Source: Candidatus Saccharimonadota bacterium (GTDB lineage: Bacteria > Patescibacteriota > Saccharimonadia > Saccharimonadales > SLHW01). Taken from it: 64,000 nt of DNA. The stretch is from NCBI GenBank assembly GCA_024635455.1, contig JAGXIU010000003.1, positions 3,966 to 67,965 on the forward strand, in the 5' to 3' direction. The notes below the pieces were generated by a model, which saw only the letters and a list, made by a program, of their open reading frames with translations, ran no database searches and was not told the DNA's origin. Position numbers and translations under genes: made by a program. Below, in pieces: positions 17,632 to 46,094 of the stretch. How positions within the stretch are numbered: the stretch's first letter is position 1; every line of letters begins with the position of its first letter.

Positions 17632-18405
17632 GTGGTGTTCCAAAAAAAGAAAATTCAGAAACTTATTCGCTTCAATATGGTTATGTCAGCTATCCATGCG
17701 TCTCAAGGATTATTAGTTTTATTCATTAGTAGTAGCTTTAGTCTACCGATAACTTCAAGCTATCTAGCCTTTAACGAAACAACCGAATCGCTCGAGCAAG
17801 CTTCAAAGGTGTTGTTTGATCTGCCTCTCGCTCCACTGGTGGCACTATTCTTCTTCATCTCTGCTGGTTTTCATTTATTTATAGCCACGGCTGGTAAGAA
17901 GCAATATTCTCGTGACCTGAAACAAGGCATCAATCGATTCCGTTGGTATGAATACGCCATCTCTGCTTCTATTATGATGGTTGCTATCGCTATGTTAGCT
18001 GGTGTTTATGAGCTGTCACTTCTTATTGCAGTATTCGGCTTTACTGCGATTATGAACCTACTGGGCCTCGTAATGGAAGTACACAATCAGACAACGAAGC
18101 AAACCAATTGGTTGAGCTATGTAGTAGGTTGTGTTTCTGGCATCGTGCCGTGGATTATTGTGGCGATATATTTCTGGGGTACTGCGAGTGAGAGCGGAGC
18201 GAGCGCTATCCCTACATTTGTGTATTGGATATATGTATCGATATTCTTGTTCTTTAATGCCTTTGCGCTAAATATGGTGCTCCAATACAAGAAAATCGGT
18301 AAATGGAAGGACTATCTGTATGGAGAAAAATCCTACATTGTACTTAGCCTTGTGGCAAAATCGTTACTAGCTTGGCAAGTATTCGGTGGTACGCTGCAGC
18401 CTTAA
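17632..18405 (+). CDS. Heliorhodopsin (7-TM retinal protein)
   Basis: End-to-end by-eye match to heliorhodopsin 48C12: FRWYEYAISASIMM, GIVPWI, FLFFNAFAL, GEKSYIVLSLVAKSLLAWQVFGGTLQP (Schiff-base Lys in LVAKS). AAAGGAGG Shine-Dalgarno sequence upstream. Confidence 0.85.
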   Translation: MVFQKKKIQKLIRFNMVMSAIHASQGLLVLFISSSFSLPITSSYLAFNETTESLEQASKVLFDLPLAPLVALFFFISAGFHLFIATAGKKQYSRDLKQGINRFRWYEYAISASIMMVAIAMLAGVYELSLLIAVFGFTAIMNLLGLVMEVHNQTTKQTNWLSYVVGCVSGIVPWIIVAIYFWGTASESGASAIPTFVYWIYVSIFLFFNAFALNMVLQYKKIGKWKDYLYGEKSYIVLSLVAKSLLAWQVFGGTLQP

Positions 18406-25090: not shown

Positions 25091-25151
25091 TTCTTATTCC
25101 TGTGGATAAGTCATGTGGTTTATAGATAGAAACTATAAAAAAGACTTGCAT

Positions 25152-25199
25152 GTGGGTATAGGTGGGTAGTATGCTGGTGTTAGTGGGTAATCGTGGGTA
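25152..25199 (+). promoter_or_regulatory. MraZ operator-like array of phased GTGGGTA direct repeats overlapping the mraZ promoter
   Basis: Perfect GTGGGTA at 25152, 25162, 25183 and 25193, plus degenerate GCTGGTG at 25173. Spacing is 10-11 bp. TTGCAT (25146) and TAGTAT (25167) are hexamer candidates. Confidence 0.65.
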
Positions 25200-25262
25200 A
25201 GCCAAAACAGCCTACCGAACGACAAAAATAAAAACCACTGTAATTTAAACTATCAAATATAT

Positions 25263-25622
25263 ATGGCCACACTAGACTACTTCGAACGCAAGCTTGACAG
25301 CAAGCGACGGTTAACCATACCAGTCGAGCTTCGAGACGAACTTGCATCAGGGGTAGTAATCACTCGTGGGTTCCAGAAATACCTTCATCTTTACCCGAAG
25401 TCGGTATGGGATGAGCAGGTAGAAGCTAAGTTGAATGGAGATATTCTCGATGAGAGAATAGCTGACCTCAACGTTCAGTTTCGTACCGGCAAATCCGAAG
25501 GAGCTTTAGACGGGAAGCAGGGTCGCATCAGTATAGATCAACATTTGTTGGACTACGCTGGTATCGATCATTCATTAGTGGCAATCCGAGTTGGTCGCTA
25601 TTGGCGACTTGTCGCAGCATAG
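25263..25622 (+). CDS. mraZ: Transcriptional regulator MraZ (short form)
   Basis: Two SpoVT/AbrB-like halves with the motifs DSKRRLTIP and DGKQGRISI. First gene of the dcw cluster. Confidence 0.85.
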   Translation: MATLDYFERKLDSKRRLTIPVELRDELASGVVITRGFQKYLHLYPKSVWDEQVEAKLNGDILDERIADLNVQFRTGKSEGALDGKQGRISIDQHLLDYAGIDHSLVAIRVGRYWRLVAA

Positions 25623-32740: not shown

Positions 32741-33700
32741 ATGAAACTTTTTACTACCAAAAAAACTAACCAGAGAAACCGGTCGCGGATTCGGCCAAAA
32801 TCACCTGGCTCTAGTAAGGCAAGCAATACATACAGCACGCATAATCAGCCGCGACGATCACCAATCAGCGGTGATACAAGAACACGCAATAGTGTCGGTG
32901 GTGGAGCCCCTGCGTCAGGCCCGAAGTATCCATGGAGGTGGCTACCGCTTACCGTGATTGGTGTAGTGATTATTGGGCTTCTCCTTTATACAAGTTTTGT
33001 TGACGTAAGCAATCCTAAGGTGCGAATTATAGCTCCGAACCAAGCAGAAACATTTACGGTTGTGAAGGATGATATCCTAAGAGAGAACGCATATATGGAA
33101 GCAACAGCTGCAGCGCTTCGTGAGTCGATACTTAGCCGTAGTAAGTTTACCGTTAATAAGTCACGCATTGAATCGGCACTAATTGCAGAGTTCCCTGAGA
33201 TCCAGCTGGCTTCACTTCAATTTCATCTTATCGATAAAACACCAATAATTCGCCTCGTGCCACGTAATCCGGTGTTGTTGGTCGAGTCAACCCAAGACAA
33301 CACTCGTTATTATGTAGATGCAAATGGTGTTGTCATGGCTCAAAAATCAACGAATACAAGTGAAGATTCACCGTTAAGAACTGTGGTTGATGAGTCAGGC
33401 CTTGAGCTAATTCCGGGAAGCCGCGTCCTGCCGGTGGATACGATACGCTTTATTGATCAGGTTGAAGAACAGTTTAACGCGGCTGATCTACGTATTCAAT
33501 CGATGTCTTTGCCTGCCGTCGCGAATGAGCTGCATGTTCGGGTAGTGGGGGACGAATTTGTCGGTAAGTTTGATATAACTGCCGACGTTCGTATACAGGC
33601 CGGTACGTTTATTGCTGTTCGTGAACAATTAAACCAAGATAACATTCAGCCTCGCGAGTACATTGACGCGCGTATACAGGGAAGAGCCTACTACAGGTAG
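32741..33700 (+). CDS. ftsQ: FtsQ/DivIB-like cell-division protein
   Basis: Basic N-terminal tail, one TM helix (LPLTVIGVVIIGLLLY), POTRA-like region. Lies after murG. Confidence 0.6.
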   Translation: MKLFTTKKTNQRNRSRIRPKSPGSSKASNTYSTHNQPRRSPISGDTRTRNSVGGGAPASGPKYPWRWLPLTVIGVVIIGLLLYTSFVDVSNPKVRIIAPNQAETFTVVKDDILRENAYMEATAAALRESILSRSKFTVNKSRIESALIAEFPEIQLASLQFHLIDKTPIIRLVPRNPVLLVESTQDNTRYYVDANGVVMAQKSTNTSEDSPLRTVVDESGLELIPGSRVLPVDTIRFIDQVEEQFNAADLRIQSMSLPAVANELHVRVVGDEFVGKFDITADVRIQAGTFIAVREQLNQDNIQPREYIDARIQGRAYYR

Positions 33701-33738
33701 GCTCGCAATAAGCAATAATCCCCCAGCCTCTCCTGCTC

Positions 33739-34380
33739 AGTGTTCGCAATTTGTTCTATTTGATGAATATACTACTACGCTAAAAAACTATACAAAAATA
33801 TAAAAGCAGGGGAATGTCAAAAAAATATATATAAAACAGGAAAGTGGGGAAATTGCAAACTTTTATAATGGATCAGAGTAAAAAGCAAATGTTTTCACGT
33901 ATAAAGCGACATAACTGTGGATAAGTCAAATATGATGTAAATATACACACGTTTCTATGCCCATAGTCGAGGGGGGCATACTTGAGGCTATAACAGCTGA
34001 GCATAACGTACAGTGCAGTTAATAGCATCTGAGCTTGGTGTAAACCGACACATACACCACAAAACAGAAATCCCCTGTAGTAGTAGATGATTGCTTATAC
34101 CTGGGTAACAATGAATACTAAGTCGTAAAAGATATATTGTGCGACGTTGTAGTTAGCGCTCCGGGGTAGTGCTCTGCTAGCTGGTTTGTGCTTTGTTTTG
34201 AGCTTCTATTCTTCTATTATTTATATTTTTCGTTATGTTTGTGCGCTGGTATCTTTTTTCTGCTACTTTCCTACTTTGATCTCTATACGATTAGTCCTAC
34301 AACTAATTTTACGTTTTACCTGTATTTAGTTCATTATTTGGCTACACTTATCCTACTATAAAAGTGTTCGCAATTTGTTC
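33739..34380 (+). repeat. 18-bp perfect direct repeats (AGTGTTCGCAATTTGTTC at 33739-33756 and 34363-34380) bounding an ORF-free segment
   Basis: Exact 18-mer read twice in the same orientation, 624 bp apart, inside the ftsQ-downstream non-coding region. Confidence 0.8.
33770..34085 (+). ncRNA. Candidate structured RNA with RNase P-like P4 signature (very tentative)
   Basis: ACAGGAAAGUGGGGA (33836-33850) and ACAGAAAUCCCCU (34064-34076) carry the GGAAAGU and ACAGAA motifs next to complementary GGGGA/UCCCC. Flanking 9-bp helix UACUACUAC/GUAGUAGUA. The region is AT-rich and other RNase P conserved regions were not found. Confidence 0.2.
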
Positions 34381-34596
34381 ATTAATATTGCAGTTTTTGT
34401 TAGCACGTCTGAAAGAGCATACTCTCCTAACCTGCCAACAGGCACACAAGTCGGCTGTTGCTACTTATCAATCTTAGCTTTGGGTTTATTACGACTAGTT
34501 CTACCTTAAGTGTAGCCACTACTGATACTGCCCTTAAGTCTTGTAAGCAGATACTGCACAGCAGCAGATGTATTCTTATAGAAAATGGAAGCTTTT

Positions 34597-35634
34597 CTAT
34601 TGCTCAGCGACGGTGTAGGTGGCTTTAGCAACCCGCTTGAACTGAGGTTTACCTTGAAGGTTCAGTAATATAGTAGTCTCTTTAACATAGCGACTTTTCA
34701 GGACTTCCCGAACAATATCATCGCGGTGGAGTGGCGCACCGGCTTTCTTTAAGACGTCAGTGATGGTATCAGCGACGGTGCCTTTCTTGAAGCCCCATTC
34801 CTTGAGCGCATATATACCACGGCCGACGAGCACGAATCGCTTATCTTTGATAAGTTCATTATGGATAGCTTGTACAGTAACGTCGTTTCGTTTGAAGCCA
34901 CTTTCTTGAATTGCTTTGGCGATTTCATTGAAGTGCAGGTGTTTGCCGTTTTCGTATAGAATAACGTATATCTTGTCTCGAATGTTCTTTGGGTTGACCA
35001 TAGGCCATTTCGTAAGCCCCCAGCGGCCATTTAGCGTTGCGATATGCTTCGAGGCACGAGCTAAGCCTTCTACGTGCTTTTCGTCAGTGATCTTTGCTTG
35101 TTTCGCAATTGCAGCTATGGTGGTTGGTTTACCAATATCTTTTACTGCTGTTAAGACTTGGTCTACTCTTGCTTTTAACTGTTTTTCGTCGTGCTCGGAT
35201 TTAAGCCCAGTTACTTGGTAGAATGTGTCGTTTTCGTCAACTACTACAAGGTCTGCGCAGAGTGATGCAATAAATGCGACGCGAGCATGCTCGATACGAC
35301 TTGGCTTTTCAACGAATTGCTGTGTAAGGTCTTTGATACGTGCTACTTTTGTAGTGTTTTTGAGGTGGTCAATAAGTTCTATTTGTAGATTCTTGACGTG
35401 AGGAACGTTCCCCTCCTCTGCCTGCATCTTCAATCGGATAACAACGGCCTTTTCTAACTGACGAACACGCTCTCTGGTGATGCCAAGTAGCTCACCGATT
35501 TGCTCTAGTGTTTCCTTGCGATCAAACAATCCAAATCGGCGTGACACGATTTCTCGTTCACGTTCTCGTTCTATAGTTTGTAAAATGTCGGTAACGATTT
35601 TCTCGGTGTTACGTTCAGATTTAGGCTCTGTCAT
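34597..35634 (-). CDS. Sigma-70 region-4 HTH protein fused to three HARE-HTH/RpoE(delta)-N-like winged-helix repeats
   Basis: N-terminus EIVSRRFGLFDRKETLEQIGELLGITRERVRQLEKAVVIRLK (sigma region 4.2). Then three repeats ending in WGLTKW / YALKEWGF / ATYTV. Confidence 0.6.
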   Translation of the reverse strand: MTEPKSERNTEKIVTDILQTIEREREREIVSRRFGLFDRKETLEQIGELLGITRERVRQLEKAVVIRLKMQAEEGNVPHVKNLQIELIDHLKNTTKVARIKDLTQQFVEKPSRIEHARVAFIASLCADLVVVDENDTFYQVTGLKSEHDEKQLKARVDQVLTAVKDIGKPTTIAAIAKQAKITDEKHVEGLARASKHIATLNGRWGLTKWPMVNPKNIRDKIYVILYENGKHLHFNEIAKAIQESGFKRNDVTVQAIHNELIKDKRFVLVGRGIYALKEWGFKKGTVADTITDVLKKAGAPLHRDDIVREVLKSRYVKETTILLNLQGKPQFKRVAKATYTVAEQ

Positions 35635-39055: not shown

Positions 39056-39072
39056 AGATTAGGTTTTTAGTA

Positions 39073-39101
39073 TTGACATATAACGTTTTATTTGCTAAAG
39101 T
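39073..39101 (+). promoter_or_regulatory. Sigma-70-type promoter candidate driving a non-coding transcript
   Basis: TTGACA (39073-39078), 17-nt spacer, TAAAGT (39096-39101). There is no plus-strand ORF downstream. Confidence 0.4.
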
Positions 39102-39107
39102 ATGTTC

Positions 39108-39563
39108 TTGTAAACGCCGTAAAGGTGATTTACGCACCTTATATCCCCCATTCTAGCAATTATGTTGCTAGAAAACATTGTTAGATTGTTTTAGAGCACG
39201 CCTGCAAACGTCATAATACGTCTTACCCTCCACGTGTATGAATATGCATGCATTCTGTCGAGCGTTTTTGCTCAATACAATACATGCTCTAAAACAAACT
39301 AACCCCTTTAACGCCCCAGCTCTTTTTATAAGGAGTCGGGTGCCAGGAGTCTTTGAGAGACGACCGGCCCAAACAAAATGGTGAATATACAGTATTCCGT
39401 CGTTTACGTGCGGAGGCGCGGGCGATGAGTAAATCTATCGCAATCCGACGCTTCACCGGGGTGGGTTGAAGGGAATGTGCGAGGCATTGGCGTTTTAATA
39501 ACGTTCAATGCCTCATGAAACGAGCTTCTAGCGGTGCCCACCCCCTCTAGAAGCTCGTTTTTT
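39108..39563 (+). ncRNA. Candidate ~455-nt structured ncRNA of unknown class
   Basis: Bounded by the promoter candidate and a strong terminator. No ORF of 60 aa or more on either strand. Hairpins at 39122-39140, 39153-39171 and 39481-39514. 11-bp long-range pairing between 39188-39198 and 39285-39295. Confidence 0.35.
39519..39563 (+). terminator. Rho-independent terminator (strong on the plus strand, may also serve pth on the minus strand)
   Basis: 13-bp stem AACGAGCTTCTAG/CTAGAAGCTCGTT followed by TTTTTTGTTT. Lies directly beside the pth stop codon. Confidence 0.7.
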
Positions 39564-39565
39564 GT

Positions 39566-45656: not shown

Positions 45657-45740
45657 GATTATACGTTAAAAACCGACATTTTTACATGGTATATCTGGGA
45701 AAATTACCTACAACTGTGGTAGTATAGGGCTCGAACTTAT

Positions 45741-45815
45741 GGCCTCATCGTCTAACGGCTAGGACACCAGGTTCTCATCCTGGCAATCGGGGTTCGATTC
45801 CCCGTGAGGTCACCA
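45741..45815 (+). tRNA. tRNA-Glu (anticodon CUC), CCA encoded
   Basis: Manual cloverleaf: acceptor GGCCUCA/UGAGGUC, anticodon stem CCAGG/CCUGG with loop UUCUCAU, T arm CGGGG-UUCGAUU-CCCCG, discriminator A, CCA. Confidence 0.9.
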
Positions 45816-45824
45816 ATGAAAGTG

Positions 45825-45847
45825 CCCCACCTTGTGTGGGGTTTTTT
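45825..45847 (+). terminator. Rho-independent terminator after tRNA-Glu
   Basis: Stem CCCCAC/GTGGGG, then TTTTTT. Nested within a longer helix CACCAATGAAA/TTTCATTGGTG (45811-45855). Confidence 0.7.
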
Positions 45848-45855
45848 CATTGGTG

Positions 45856-46037
45856 CGTTCCATGCAATGGAACAATCGAACACCCAGGTTCGAAGACAAG
45901 GAGCTCACGCAGATGCTTGCATCGAGTAAGCTCCGCAGGCGCATCGACTGAAAGGAGATATTCCCCGTGAGGTCACGCGCAGAAGTTTACTTCGAGCATG
46001 GCAAAGCAATCTTTCCTCCTCTTCTCATCCTGGCAAT
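45856..46037 (+). repeat. Structured module carrying duplicated tRNA-Glu fragments (att-scar / CIME-like)
   Basis: ATTCCCCGTGAGGTCAC at 45960-45976 equals tRNA positions 45797-45813. TTCTCATCCTGGCAAT at 46022-46037 equals 45772-45787. Conserved core at 45887-45926 is shared with the tRNA-Ser locus. Confidence 0.6.
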
Positions 46038-46094
46038 ATCGCCAAAAATGAAGGATGCTACACTAGTGTTATACTGAAGCGTAAGGAGAATGCT

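What the first reader, a model, noticed from the sequence alone, without database searches (positions are those of the whole stretch)
33701..34596. 896-bp ORF-free, AT-rich region where ftsA-ftsZ normally follow ftsQ
In a window that is ~90% coding with typical gaps under 200 bp, no ORF of 60 aa or more exists on either strand for 896 bp. The region lies between the convergent ftsQ-like gene and the sigma-r4/HARE-HTH gene. The dcw cluster stops abruptly here without ftsA or ftsZ. The segment contains a perfect DnaA box, 18-bp direct repeats, a 7-bp GC hairpin (TATGCCC/GGGCATA, 33955-33979), and a ~140-nt pyrimidine-rich tract (34190-34330, with TTCTATT repeated). Possible explanations are one or more ncRNA genes, a replication-related site, or the remnant of an excised or decayed element.
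Basis: seen in the sequence. Interest (0 to 1): 0.6.

Follow-up and report, generated by a model that had tools for sequence, protein, structure and literature searches.

The report
Replication-terminus gap holding a dif site
The 896-bp gene-free stretch is the place where the two halves of a Saccharibacteria (CPR) chromosome meet, and it holds a 28-bp site of the kind used to untangle joined daughter chromosomes; the same site recurs across the candidate phyla radiation and I found no published description of it.

Summary
Window 33701-34596 is the largest ORF-free gap in the window (896 bp; median gap 48 bp) and has low GC (37% against 45%).

It is not a decayed ftsA/ftsZ, not an origin, and shows no sign of a structured RNA.

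It lies at a convergent switch of gene orientation. At 34120-34147 it carries AAGTCGTAAAA|GATATA|TTGTGCGACGT, with 11-6-11 architecture. The 24-nt core occurs once each in 120 species genomes, all apparently Patescibacteria, and almost always between converging gene blocks.

Three findings support a dif-type Xer recombination site:
- In oral Saccharibacteria, 5.1-5.9-kb filamentous-phage-like elements (Zot-like ATPase, rolling-circle Rep, no integrase found) are inserted at the site. They are bounded by a full and a half site, as in IMEX elements.
- In six Microgenomates-type loci, a Xer-family recombinase gene lies 300-546 bp away.
- The site has the canonical arm-spacer-arm layout.

The left ~470 bp of the gap is conserved in relatives. 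Across 47 Saccharibacteria it contains two direct GTTC-N7-GTTC boxes bracketing the site, an AT-rich block, and a DnaA box that always points away from the site. The function of these elements is unknown. The right ~410 bp is unconserved.

Verdict: a new variant of a known kind.

The parts
32741..33700 (+). FtsQ, the last gene of the dcw cluster and left border of the gap
   Evidence: No Pfam, NCBIfam or PDB-sequence hit. The AlphaFold model (pLDDT 79) matches E. coli and Yersinia FtsQ: Foldseek E 1.4e-10 to 1.9e-9, probability 1.00.
33741..33756 (+). Box 1, TGTTCGCAATTTGTTC (GTTC-N7-GTTC direct half-repeats)
   Evidence: Exact repeat of box 2 and found only twice in the window. Across 110 loci, GTTC-N7-GTTY occurs 78 times on the + strand and 2 times on the - strand. 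44 loci have a copy at -445 to -308 from the site.
33782..33853 (.). Conserved A/T-rich block (AAAAAAnTATAYAAAAATAT, AAATGTCAAA, AGGGGA)
   Evidence: About 90% identical to a relative whose FtsQ is 65% identical. Columns are 70-99% conserved across 47 Saccharibacteria.
33880..33932 (-). DnaA-box module: on the - strand, TTATCCACAG (box at 33916-33924), 16 nt, then CGTGAAAAC (33891-33899), then ATTTGCTTTTT
   Evidence: Perfect DnaA box. Across 110 loci, all 59 TTWTCCACA 9-mers within -470 to +280 of the site point away from it: 47 on the left - strand, 12 on the right + strand, none otherwise. 19 loci also have the YGTGAAAA partner at 0-32 nt.
33955..33979 (.). GC hairpin TATGCCC/GGGCATA within a variable segment (33956-34050)
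   Evidence: Folds, but the segment is not alignable even with the closest relative.
34120..34147 (+). dif-type recombination site: left arm AAGTCGTAAAA (34120-34130), central GATATA (34131-34136), right arm TTGTGCGACGT (34137-34147)
   Evidence: Single copy in the window with none in shuffles. The core is found once each in 120 different CPR assemblies. Information extends over 28 bp in an 11-6-11 layout. It lies at a convergent gene switch. Inovirus-like elements insert at it. A xer gene is adjacent in six loci.
34148..34187 (.). Right-flank block GTTGTAGTTAGCGCTCCGGGGTAGTGCTCTGCTAGCTGG, conserved only in the close family
   Evidence: Nearly identical in L002, L004 and L005, and diverged in L006 and beyond.
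34190..34330 (+). T-rich, unconserved spacer
   Evidence: 52% T. No homologue in any fetched locus.
34365..34380 (+). Box 2, TGTTCGCAATTTGTTC, in the same orientation as box 1
   Evidence: 31 loci have a + strand copy at +182 to +274, and 29 loci have both boxes.
34381..34596 (.). Unconserved spacer up to the stop codon of the right-hand gene
   Evidence: No similarity to relatives or to the rest of the window.
34597..35634 (-). Sigma70_r4 + HARE-HTH (RNAP-delta-like) protein, right border of the gap
   Evidence: Pfam and NCBIfam. It is the right-hand, - strand neighbour of the site in 39 loci.

Best explanation
The gap is the intergenic region at the replication terminus of a Saccharibacteria (Patescibacteria/CPR) chromosome. 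Its core functional element is a 28-bp dif-type site at 34120-34147: two inverted 11-bp arms around a 6-bp central region.

Proposed mechanism, inferred by analogy:
1. Xer-family tyrosine recombinase protomers bind the two arms on each sister chromosome.
2. They exchange strands within the central GATATA.
3. This converts chromosome dimers into monomers at division.

The same reaction is hijacked by integrase-less filamentous-phage-like elements. These carry a half-matching site (central region plus right arm).

The region stays non-coding because the site and about 450 bp of conserved flanking DNA are under selection as DNA. That flank includes the GTTC-N7-GTTC boxes, an AT-rich block and a polar DnaA box. 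The right ~410 bp is neutral spacer.

Shown here: conservation, copy number, position at the convergent switch, insertions at the site, and an adjacent xer gene in some lineages. Inferred: actual recombination, which recombinase acts in this genome, FtsK dependence, and any role of the flanking module.
For: (1) Orientation switch.
- In the window, long ORFs are mostly on + up to 33700 and mostly on - from 34597 to about 58 kb.
- GC skew falls from about +0.07 to about 0, and AT skew flips.

(2) Distribution of the core.
- Nearly all are labelled Patescibacteria. There is one hit per locus.
- I estimate about 0.07 chance matches in that collection.

(3) Gene layout around the core.
- ORFs on the left are 91% on + (384 kb against 37 kb).
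- ORFs on the right are 89% on - (313 kb against 38 kb).
- 75 of 98 loci with two neighbours are convergent, and 3 are divergent.
- Mean GC skew is +0.063 on the left and -0.031 on the right. In non-ORF DNA it is +0.056 and -0.037.

(4) Extent of the site.
- Information extends to R-n-GTCGYAAAA | KATAYA | TTGTGCGAC-R-T, an 11-6-11 layout.

(5) Insertions at the site.
- L141, L143, L146, L148, L149, L150 and L135 read: host murG and ftsQ, full site, 5.1-5.9 kb of + strand genes, a second site keeping only KATAYA+TTGTGCGAC, then host genes.
- The insert encodes a Zot-like ATPase (E 6e-9) and a rolling-circle Rep (E 1.7e-13; Pfam G2P family E 2.5e-10). No integrase was detected among the 10 insert ORFs scanned.
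- L031 carries the same host flanks (94-97% protein identity) without the 5,523-bp insert.

(6) Adjacent recombinase.
- In L048, L049, L086, L104, L116 and L119 the nearest gene, 300-546 bp away, is a tyrosine recombinase; L086's is a 101-aa truncated ORF. A more divergent one (Phage_integrase E 6e-23) lies 440 bp from the site in L057.
- The L104 and L048 proteins were scanned: Phage_integrase E 3e-42, plus Phage_int_SAM_1.
- NCBIfam scores for L104: XerC 254 bits and XerD 249 bits, both below cut-off; archaeal XerA 235.9 bits, above its cut-off of 220 (L048 scores 218.8, just below).
- Linkage of gene and site is described as a hallmark of the single-recombinase XerS/difSL and XerH/difH modules (PMC5357621).
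- A separate 'Cand' subgroup of Xer-related recombinases in candidate phyla is reported in PMC8138268.
Against: - Plain similarity to canonical dif is weak. The site matches B. subtilis dif at 18 of 28 positions, tied with four other places in the window, and it is not among the best matches to E. coli dif.
- Only 3 of 6 pairs are complementary at positions 7-12/17-22, which fails the threshold used in PMC3025954.
- No xer, ftsK or dnaA gene was seen in the 64-kb window.
- True terminus position could not be checked against oriC in a closed genome. The site lies at 48.7%, 75.8% and 68.4% of three complete records whose start points I could not verify.
- GC3 skew does not differ between majority- and minority-oriented genes. 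The compositional evidence is therefore weak and confounded by gene orientation.
- The 24 core positions look invariant partly because the search required them.
- The site explains only 28 of the 896 bp.
Confidence: 0.8

Rival explanations
1. The conserved left half of the gap (33741-34120) is one or more non-coding RNA genes. The dif-type site merely lies beside or within them.
For: - Blocks of the gap are more conserved than the flanking coding sequence: about 90% against 65% protein identity.
- An imperfect inverted repeat with a variable loop (TTWTCCACAG ... YGTGAAAAC), followed on the - strand by ATTTGCTTTTT, resembles a weak terminator.
- About half of 47 species have a GC hairpin roughly 50 nt left of the site, with different stem sequences.
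Against: - No Rfam family matches even at E<=10.
- z-scores are -0.01, +0.46, +0.79 and +0.47 for both halves on both strands.
- RNAalifold finds only the invariant dif palindrome, with 0 compensatory pairs.
- The hairpin is absent in the window itself, at -1.7 kcal/mol and no better than shuffles.
- No convincing sigma-70 promoter: 2 weak matches against 3.0 expected.
- Conservation comes as short blocks separated by variable-length spacers, which is typical of protein-binding DNA.
Confidence: 0.1
2. The region is a replication origin (oriC) or origin-like element, made of a DnaA box, an AT-rich unwinding block and iteron-like repeats.
For: - A perfect, E. coli R4-like DnaA box (CTGTGGATAAGT) is conserved near the site in 59 of 110 loci.
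- An A/T-rich block is conserved.
- There are repeated AAAAGTCAAAT-like and GTTC-N7-GTTC motifs.
Against: - Genes converge on the site in the window and across about 120 species. An origin shows divergence.
- GC skew goes from + to -, the terminus pattern.
- The gap has a single DnaA box, and the window-wide count is at chance.
- No dnaA or dnaN lies within 30 kb on either side.
- Xer-exploiting phage insertions at the adjacent site point to dif. [quoted passage not shown]
Confidence: 0.03
3. The gap is a scar: decayed ftsA/ftsZ, or what is left after an integrated element excised or eroded.
For: - The right ~410 bp is unconserved, T-rich and longer than in most relatives, where the distance from site to right gene is usually 200-300 bp.
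- Related genomes do carry elements integrated at this very site.
Against: - Six-frame translations have no Pfam hit at E<=1.
- There is no second half-site in the window at up to 4 mismatches.
- There is no similarity to the inserted elements or to the rest of the window.
- The gap and synteny are ancestral: 667-1031 bp in relatives with 32-65% identical FtsQ.
Confidence: 0.05

Closest known systems
XerC/XerD-dif of E. coli and B. subtilis (28-bp chromosome dimer resolution site)
   Same: Both are 28 bp with an 11-6-11 layout. Both are single copy and lie in the terminus region between converging replichores. Both are exploited by integrase-less filamentous phages. Inner arm bases are alike: TCGCACAA-N6 here, GCGCATAA-N6 in E. 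coli.
   Different: Overall identity is not above background in the window. Dyad symmetry sits in the outer arm bases (GTCG/CGAC) rather than at positions 7-12/17-22. The linked recombinases seen in relatives score below the XerC and XerD equivalog cut-offs.
Single-recombinase modules XerS/difSL (streptococci, lactococci) and XerH/difH (epsilon-proteobacteria)
   Same: The arms are nearly palindromic and end in (G/Y)AAAA. The published arms are TTTCCGAAAA and AGTTATGAAAA (PMC5357621). The recombinase gene sits next to the site in six CPR loci.
   Different: The central region is 6 bp, against 11 bp in difSL. In Saccharibacteria, including this window, no recombinase gene is adjacent. The linked recombinases are about 310-320 aa, against about 355 aa.
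Archaeal XerA/dif
   Same: The linked CPR recombinase passes the NCBIfam XerA model cut-off (235.9 bits against 220). The site is 28 bp.
   Different: The host is bacterial. FtsK dependence is unknown. I did not compare the site sequence with archaeal dif.
IMEX elements (CTXphi, VGJphi, TLCphi of Vibrio; gonococcal island)
   Same: The elements are 5.1-5.9 kb and encode a Zot-like ATPase and a rolling-circle Rep, with no integrase detected. They insert at the site and are bounded by one full and one arm-degenerate copy. Arrays of different elements occur.
   Different: The hosts are oral Saccharibacteria. The window itself carries no such element. Integration was inferred from comparing sequences and was not observed.
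Tus-Ter / RTP-Ter fork traps and the datA/DARS DnaA-binding loci
   Same: There are short polar protein-binding sites close to the terminus. The orientation of the DnaA box mirrors with the side of dif on which it lies. A DNA-binding protein gene is always adjacent in Saccharibacteria.
   Different: No homologue of Tus or RTP was looked for or seen. The two GTTC boxes are in direct, not opposed, orientation. No DnaA-binding locus at a terminus is known to me. This is a resemblance only.

Membership tests
dif / Xer chromosome dimer resolution site | Two inverted recombinase-binding arms of about 11 bp around a 6-11 bp central region | tested here: met
   AAGTCGTAAAA | GATATA | TTGTGCGACGT. 10 of 14 mirror positions are complementary in the window. 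Positional information covers 28 bp across 110 loci.
dif / Xer chromosome dimer resolution site | One copy per chromosome | tested here: met
   There is one match in the 64-kb window at up to 3 mismatches and none in shuffles. There are 120 loci from 120 different assemblies with one match each. Limits: only exact matches were counted, the scan was truncated, and whole genomes were not read.
dif / Xer chromosome dimer resolution site | Located at the replication terminus (skew shift point, converging replichores) | tested here: met
   Gene blocks converge: 91% on + to the left and 89% on - to the right, with 75 of 98 loci convergent. GC skew is +0.063 on the left and -0.031 on the right, and the window agrees. 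Position relative to oriC in a closed genome could not be tested.
dif / Xer chromosome dimer resolution site | Cognate Xer-family tyrosine recombinase in the same genome | tested here: inconclusive
   None is present in the 64-kb window. One lies next to the site in six related CPR loci. The rest of this genome was not available.
dif / Xer chromosome dimer resolution site | Canonical XerCD-type dyad: at least 5 complementary pairs between positions 7-12 and 17-22 (PMC3025954) | tested here: not met
   The window has 3 of 6 pairs, and the GTCGC variant has 4 of 6. Identity to B. subtilis dif is 18 of 28, no better than other places in the window. It is therefore not a canonical XerCD dif.
dif / Xer chromosome dimer resolution site | Serves as an attachment site for integrase-less mobile elements (IMEX) | tested here: met
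   This holds in related Saccharibacteria but not in the window. Occupied sites (L141 and others) compare with the unoccupied L031. The insert is 5,523 bp, and attR keeps GATATATTGTGCGAC only.
dif / Xer chromosome dimer resolution site | Recombination by Xer at the site resolves dimers | not testable with these tools
   This needs biochemistry or genetics.
oriC | Cluster of DnaA boxes with an unwinding element, usually beside dnaA/dnaN, with diverging genes and a skew minimum | tested here: not met
   There is one box in the gap, and the window count is at chance. No dnaA or dnaN was found. Genes converge.
Known structured RNA families (Rfam 15) | Match to a covariance model; stable or covarying structure | tested here: not met
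   No match at E<=10. z-scores range from -0.01 to +0.79. No compensatory pairs were found.
Integrated element or remnant in this window | Second (half) site bounding foreign DNA, or phage/plasmid gene remnants | tested here: not met
   There is no half-site at up to 4 mismatches in 33000-35500. Six-frame translations give no Pfam hit. There is no similarity to the inserts.

The most novel reading that the evidence does not exclude
The conserved DNA around the site may be a terminus apparatus of a kind not described before. A high-affinity DnaA box always points away from dif, on whichever side it lies. It is paired with an inverted partner and an AT-rich block, and the whole is bracketed by two direct GTTC-N7-GTTC boxes.

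This would mean that in CPR bacteria DnaA, or another protein that reads these boxes, acts at the terminus. Possible roles are a polar fork barrier that fixes termination next to dif, an accessory factor that controls Xer recombination, or a terminus-timed sink for DnaA.
Probability: 0.15. Interest if true: 0.8.

Novelty: new variant of a known kind. Interest (0 to 1): 0.6.

Why it matters
CPR/Patescibacteria are a large, mostly uncultured part of bacterial diversity, and their chromosome biology is almost unstudied. A phylum-wide, single-copy 24-28-bp marker of the terminus would have several uses:
- It gives a simple way to orient and check CPR genome assemblies.
- It locates termini without relying on weak GC skew.
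- It helps recognise integrated filamentous phages and other Xer-dependent elements in these genomes.
- It is a natural candidate docking site for genetic tools in the few cultivable Saccharibacteria.
- It supplies the likely DNA partner for the 'Cand' group of Xer-related recombinases (PMC8138268).

The polar DnaA box and the paired GTTC boxes next to the site are unexplained. They are directly testable by ChIP, 2D gels and deletion in the genetic system of PMC10633639.

Tried and rejected
- **Rfam.** Searching at gathering threshold over the window and at E<=10 over the gap found only three tRNAs elsewhere.
- **Promoter and terminator scan of the gap.** The result was at or below shuffle expectation.
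- **Exact-protein lookup of the right-hand gene.** It is not on record.
- **First genome scan with the FtsQ protein.** It returned no relatives. I switched to protein homologues and their contigs.
- **Small-ORF reading of ATG TTT TCA CGT ... TGT GGA TAA (33888-33924).** I rejected it because indels are not multiples of three and the start and stop are lost in L005 and L006.
- **NrdR-box reading of ATATATTGTG.** I rejected it from the sequence and my own knowledge of NrdR boxes. There is a single copy between converging genes, with no nrd gene or promoter.
- **Identity scan against E. coli and B. subtilis dif.** It did not discriminate the site, so I do not rest the case on similarity.
- **GC3 and AT3 skew of majority against minority genes, to separate replication from transcription bias.** This was inconclusive.
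- **CCCC...GGGG hairpin left of the site.** It is present in about half of the species and absent in the window.
- **Alignment-based RNA structure.** No covariation was found.
- **Search for dif-like half-sites or phage-gene similarity in the right half of the gap.** Nothing was found.
- **Literature searches.** I searched for the site sequence, for dif in CPR, and for DnaA boxes at termini. No prior description turned up.
Full report
**1. The observation**

No ORF of 60 aa or more lies on either strand in window 33701-34596. When the window is tiled with ORFs of 60 aa or more, 91% is covered. This is the largest gap at 896 bp; the next is 510 bp and the median is 48.5 bp. GC is 37.2% in the gap and 45.4% in the window.

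- TGTGGATAA at 33916-33924.
- An exact 18-bp direct repeat at 33739-33756 and 34363-34380.
- The hairpin TATGCCC/GGGCATA.
- A tract at 34190-34330 that is 52% T.

The flanks are as described. On the + strand lie mraZ, rsmH, an FtsL-like gene, ftsI, mraY, ftsW, murG and a 319-aa protein. On the - strand lie a Sigma70_r4 + HARE-HTH protein, topA, dprA and pth.

The 319-aa protein has no Pfam, NCBIfam or PDB-sequence match. A model built on 17 homologues (pLDDT 79) matches E. coli and Yersinia FtsQ with Foldseek E 1.4e-10 to 1.9e-9. Calling it 'ftsQ-like' is therefore correct by fold.

No FtsA or FtsZ domain was found in any ORF I scanned in the 64 kb.

**2. The organism, and whether the gap is ancestral**

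Homologues of the FtsQ protein come from Patescibacteria and Saccharibacteria assemblies. Contigs that encode FtsQ proteins 65%, 46%, 42% and 32% identical to the window's show the same order: murG, ftsQ, a gap of 1031, 763, 704 or about 670-940 bp, then the Sigma70_r4/HARE-HTH gene and topA. The dcw cluster therefore ends without ftsA or ftsZ in this whole lineage. It is not a local accident.

Six-frame translations of the gap give no Pfam hit at E<=1. This argues against degraded coding sequence.

**3. Conservation inside the gap**

I compared the window with the relative whose FtsQ is 65% identical. Window 33720-33955 and 34050-34187 are about 90% identical, which is more conserved than the flanking genes. 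In contrast, 33956-34050 (with the GC hairpin), the T-rich tract and 34381-34596 are not alignable.

With more distant relatives, short blocks persist. The strongest is GTCGTAAAAGATATATTGTGCGAC at 34122-34145.

**4. A CPR-wide site**

I scanned one genome per species (185,579 species) with the pattern GTCGYAAAAKATAYATTGWGCGAC. They come from 120 different assemblies, with one match each.

Nearly all are labelled Saccharibacteria, Paceibacterota, Nomura-, Kaiser-, Shapiro-, Beckwith-, Campbell-, Yonath- or Moranii-bacteria, or 'Patescibacteria group'. A few carry other labels, such as Gammaproteobacteria or Bdellovibrionales. These share flanks and neighbouring proteins with the Shapiro- and Beckwith-bacteria loci. 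I infer that they are mislabelled bins.

For a pattern of 20 fixed and 4 two-fold positions in 596 Gb, I calculate about 0.07 chance matches.

In the window the site is unique at up to 3 mismatches, and none appear in shuffles. Outside the 24 required positions, information is seen at -2 (R), +24 (R) and +25 (T). This gives R-n-GTCGYAAAA | KATAYA | TTGTGCGAC-R-T, two inverted 11-bp arms around 6 bp. Conservation within the 24 positions is partly forced by the search.

**5. The site is at a terminus-type switch**

In the window, long ORFs are mostly on + up to 33700 and mostly on - from 34597 to about 58 kb. GC skew drops from about +0.07 to about 0, and AT skew changes sign.

I oriented all loci by the site and obtained the following:

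| Measure | Left of site | Right of site |
|---|---|---|
| ORF bases on majority strand | 384 kb on + | 313 kb on - |
| ORF bases on minority strand | 37 kb on - | 38 kb on + |
| Mean GC skew | +0.063 | -0.031 |

Of 98 loci with a neighbour on each side, 75 are convergent and 3 are divergent. Non-ORF DNA shows GC skew of +0.056 and -0.037.

By the established rule that bacterial genes are preferentially co-oriented with replication, a point on which about 90% of genes converge is the terminus.

The compositional evidence is weaker. Coding-strand GC skew is 0.043 for majority genes and 0.017 for minority genes, but GC3 skew does not differ.

I could not place the site relative to oriC in a closed genome. 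It lies at 48.7% of CP064960.1, 75.8% of CP023991.1 and 68.4% of CP174360.1. I do not know where those records start.

**6. Evidence that it is a recombination site used by Xer-type enzymes**

*(a) Insertions at the site.* Twenty-three IMG/VR contigs contain the site. In L141, L143, L146, L148, L149, L150 and L135 the order is as follows:
1. Host murG and ftsQ.
2. The full site.
3. 5.1-5.9 kb of + strand genes.
4. A second site that keeps only the central region and right arm (for example TTCCTACTT-GATATATTGTGCGAC).
5. Host - strand genes.

The insert encodes a Zot-like ATPase (phrog_197, E 6e-9) and a rolling-circle replication initiator (phrog_3419, E 1.7e-13; Pfam REP_ORF2-G2P, E 2.5e-10). 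No integrase was detected among the 10 insert ORFs scanned.

L031, a genome contig, has the same host genes at 94-97% protein identity. Its right-hand gene lies 414 bp from the site, against 5,941 bp in L141. This amounts to a 5,523-bp insertion at the site.

Different insert types follow one another behind successive sites, as in IMEX arrays. This is the signature of filamentous phages that use the host Xer system, such as CTXphi, VGJphi and TLCphi (PMC5357621).

*(b) An adjacent recombinase.* In L048, L049, L086, L104, L116 and L119 the gene nearest the site, 300-546 bp away, is a tyrosine recombinase; L086's copy is a 101-aa truncated ORF. A more divergent one (Phage_integrase E 6e-23) lies 440 bp from the site in L057. 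I scanned the L104 and L048 proteins:
- Pfam: Phage_integrase (E 3e-42) plus Phage_int_SAM_1.
- NCBIfam XerC: 254 bits, below the 335 cut-off.
- NCBIfam XerD: 249 bits, below the 330 cut-off.
- NCBIfam archaeal XerA: 235.9 bits for L104, above the 220 cut-off; 218.8 bits for L048, just below it.

Linkage of recombinase gene and site is described as a hallmark of the single-recombinase XerS/difSL and XerH/difH modules (PMC5357621). A separate 'Cand' subgroup of Xer-related recombinases from candidate phyla has been reported (PMC8138268).

*(c) Architecture.* The 11-6-11 layout is that of dif. The arm ends (G/Y)AAAA recall the published difSL and difH arms (PMC5357621).

**7. What speaks against a canonical dif**

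Identity to B. subtilis dif is 18 of 28, tied with four other places in the window. The site is not among the best matches to E. coli dif.

Dyad symmetry lies in the outer bases GTCG/CGAC. Only 3 of 6 pairs are complementary at positions 7-12/17-22, below the threshold used in PMC3025954.

I therefore file it as a dif-type site of a distinct variant, not as a member of the XerCD-dif sequence family.

No xer or ftsK gene is in the window. In Saccharibacteria the recombinase is not linked to the site.

**8. The rest of the gap**

Across 47 Saccharibacteria species the left part keeps a fixed series of short blocks, separated by spacers of variable length:
- Box TGTTCGnnnTTTGTTC.
- An A/T-rich block with AAATGTCAAA.
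- AGGGGA.
- AAAAAGCAAAT.
- CTGTGGAWAAGTCAAAT.
- A variable 100-150 bp segment.
- CCCC...GGGG, GGTAT, AATCATCT.
- The site itself.
- A second box about 230 bp to its right.

GTTC-N7-GTTY occurs 78 times on the + strand and twice on the - strand in 110 loci. There are 44 copies at -445 to -308 and 31 at +182 to +274, and 29 loci have both.

DnaA-box 9-mers (TTWTCCACA) occur 59 times within -470 to +280 of the site in 110 loci, where I calculate about 1 expected. All 59 point away from the site: 47 on the left - strand and 12 on the right + strand. They fall in at least three separate arrangements:
- About -200 in Saccharibacteria.
- About +190 in the Microgenomates-type loci.
- +35 to +71 in L011, L047, L054, L074 and L092.

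Because the Saccharibacteria loci share ancestry, the number of independent cases is small.

In 19 loci the box is followed at 0-32 nt by YGTGAAAA, which forms an imperfect inverted repeat.

I have no tested function for these elements. A lone DnaA box, converging genes and no dnaA or dnaN nearby argue against an origin.

**9. The ncRNA hypothesis**

I found no support for a structured RNA:
- No Rfam hit at E<=10.
- Minimum free energies no better than shuffles on either strand for 33720-33960 and 33930-34190, with z of -0.01 to +0.79.
- RNAalifold on 47 sequences predicts only the site's own palindrome, with no compensatory change.
- The GC hairpin left of the site is present in about half of the species and is not detectable in the window.

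An unstructured or lineage-specific transcript cannot be excluded without RNA-seq.

**10. Is an element or scar present in this window?**

No second half-site is present. The right half of the gap has no nucleotide or translated similarity to the inserts, to other loci or to the rest of the window.

The only repeat with the rest of the window is the 14-mer CTGTGGATAAGTCA at 25100-25113, upstream of mraZ, with E 0.57.

The site in this window is therefore unoccupied. Whether the unconserved right 410 bp is neutral spacer or an old scar cannot be told.

**11. Verdict**

The gap is explained in outline. It is the terminus intergenic region of a Saccharibacteria chromosome, with a dif-type site at 34120-34147.

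The kind of thing is known. This sequence variant, its spread across the CPR and its use by inovirus-like elements did not appear in the papers I could search.

The flanking polar DnaA box and the paired boxes remain unexplained. They are the part most likely to hold something new.

Noticed in passing
window 17632-18405 (+): A 257-aa ORF is a full-length heliorhodopsin (Pfam PF18761, E 3e-97) in what is otherwise a small-genome Saccharibacteria contig.
   Followed up: no
window 25100-25200: Upstream of mraZ (25263-25622) lie four GTGGGTA repeats at about 10-nt spacing. The window's only other perfect DnaA box is also here, within a 14-mer (CTGTGGATAAGTCA) identical to 33915-33928. The repeats look like MraZ operator boxes; that is from memory and was not tested.
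   Followed up: partly
window 32741-33700 (+): This FtsQ is invisible to Pfam, NCBIfam and PDB-sequence profiles. It is recognised only by predicted fold. Residues 1-58 are predicted to be disordered.
   Followed up: yes
L141 2211-7757; also L143, L146, L148, L149, L150, L135: Inovirus-like elements of 5.1-5.9 kb (Zot-like ATPase, rolling-circle Rep, no integrase detected) are inserted at the site in oral Saccharibacteria. At least three interchangeable end modules occur, and elements appear in tandem.
   Followed up: partly
L031 2179-2412; L143 2300-; L146 2163- and 7579-: A 77-78-aa ORF (MNKNQL...YFVDPKDKFGLKDAI...) follows each site in the phage arrays. It also follows the 'unoccupied' site of genome contig L031, so that site may retain a mini-element or a domesticated phage gene.
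   Followed up: no
L048, L049, L086, L104, L116, L119: about +170 to +330 from the site: In Microgenomates-type loci with xer next to the site, a conserved block lies about 190 bp on the other side. It reads TT(A/T)TCCACAGAGACTATATCA..., then two or three CGTGAAAA(n)TATTATAGG repeats. The DNA beyond it has very strong negative GC skew, -0.31 to -0.49.
   Followed up: partly
L032 and 16 other Saccharibacteria loci, first gene right of the site: A ~900-aa membrane ATPase of the type IV secretion coupling-protein / HerA-FtsK superfamily (TrwB_AAD_bind, DUF87, T4SS-DNA_transf) is the immediate right-hand neighbour of the site in many Saccharibacteria. In the window that position is held by the Sigma70_r4/HARE-HTH gene.
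   Followed up: no
L018 and 24 other non-Saccharibacteria CPR loci, left of the site: A coiled-coil + Peptidase_M23 protein, which is EnvC-like by architecture, is the commonest left neighbour of the site outside Saccharibacteria.
   Followed up: no
window 34597-35634 (-): The right-hand gene fuses sigma-70 region 4 (residues 24-68) with a HARE-HTH domain. That domain scores just below the RNAP delta-subunit model cut-off (39.6 bits against 42). The gene keeps its place next to the site in 39 loci.
   Followed up: partly
L013, L030, L048, L049, L052, L110, L116, L119: These are assemblies labelled Bdellovibrionales, Gammaproteobacteria or Pseudomonadales. L048, L049, L116 and L119 carry the CPR site with the same neighbours as Shapiro- and Beckwith-bacteria loci and are probably mislabelled bins; the other four were not compared beyond the site itself.
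   Followed up: partly
window 39056-39565 and 45657-46094: These are the next largest ORF-free gaps, at 510 and 438 bp. The second contains a tRNA at 45741-45812. The first, between dprA and pth, was not examined.
   Followed up: no
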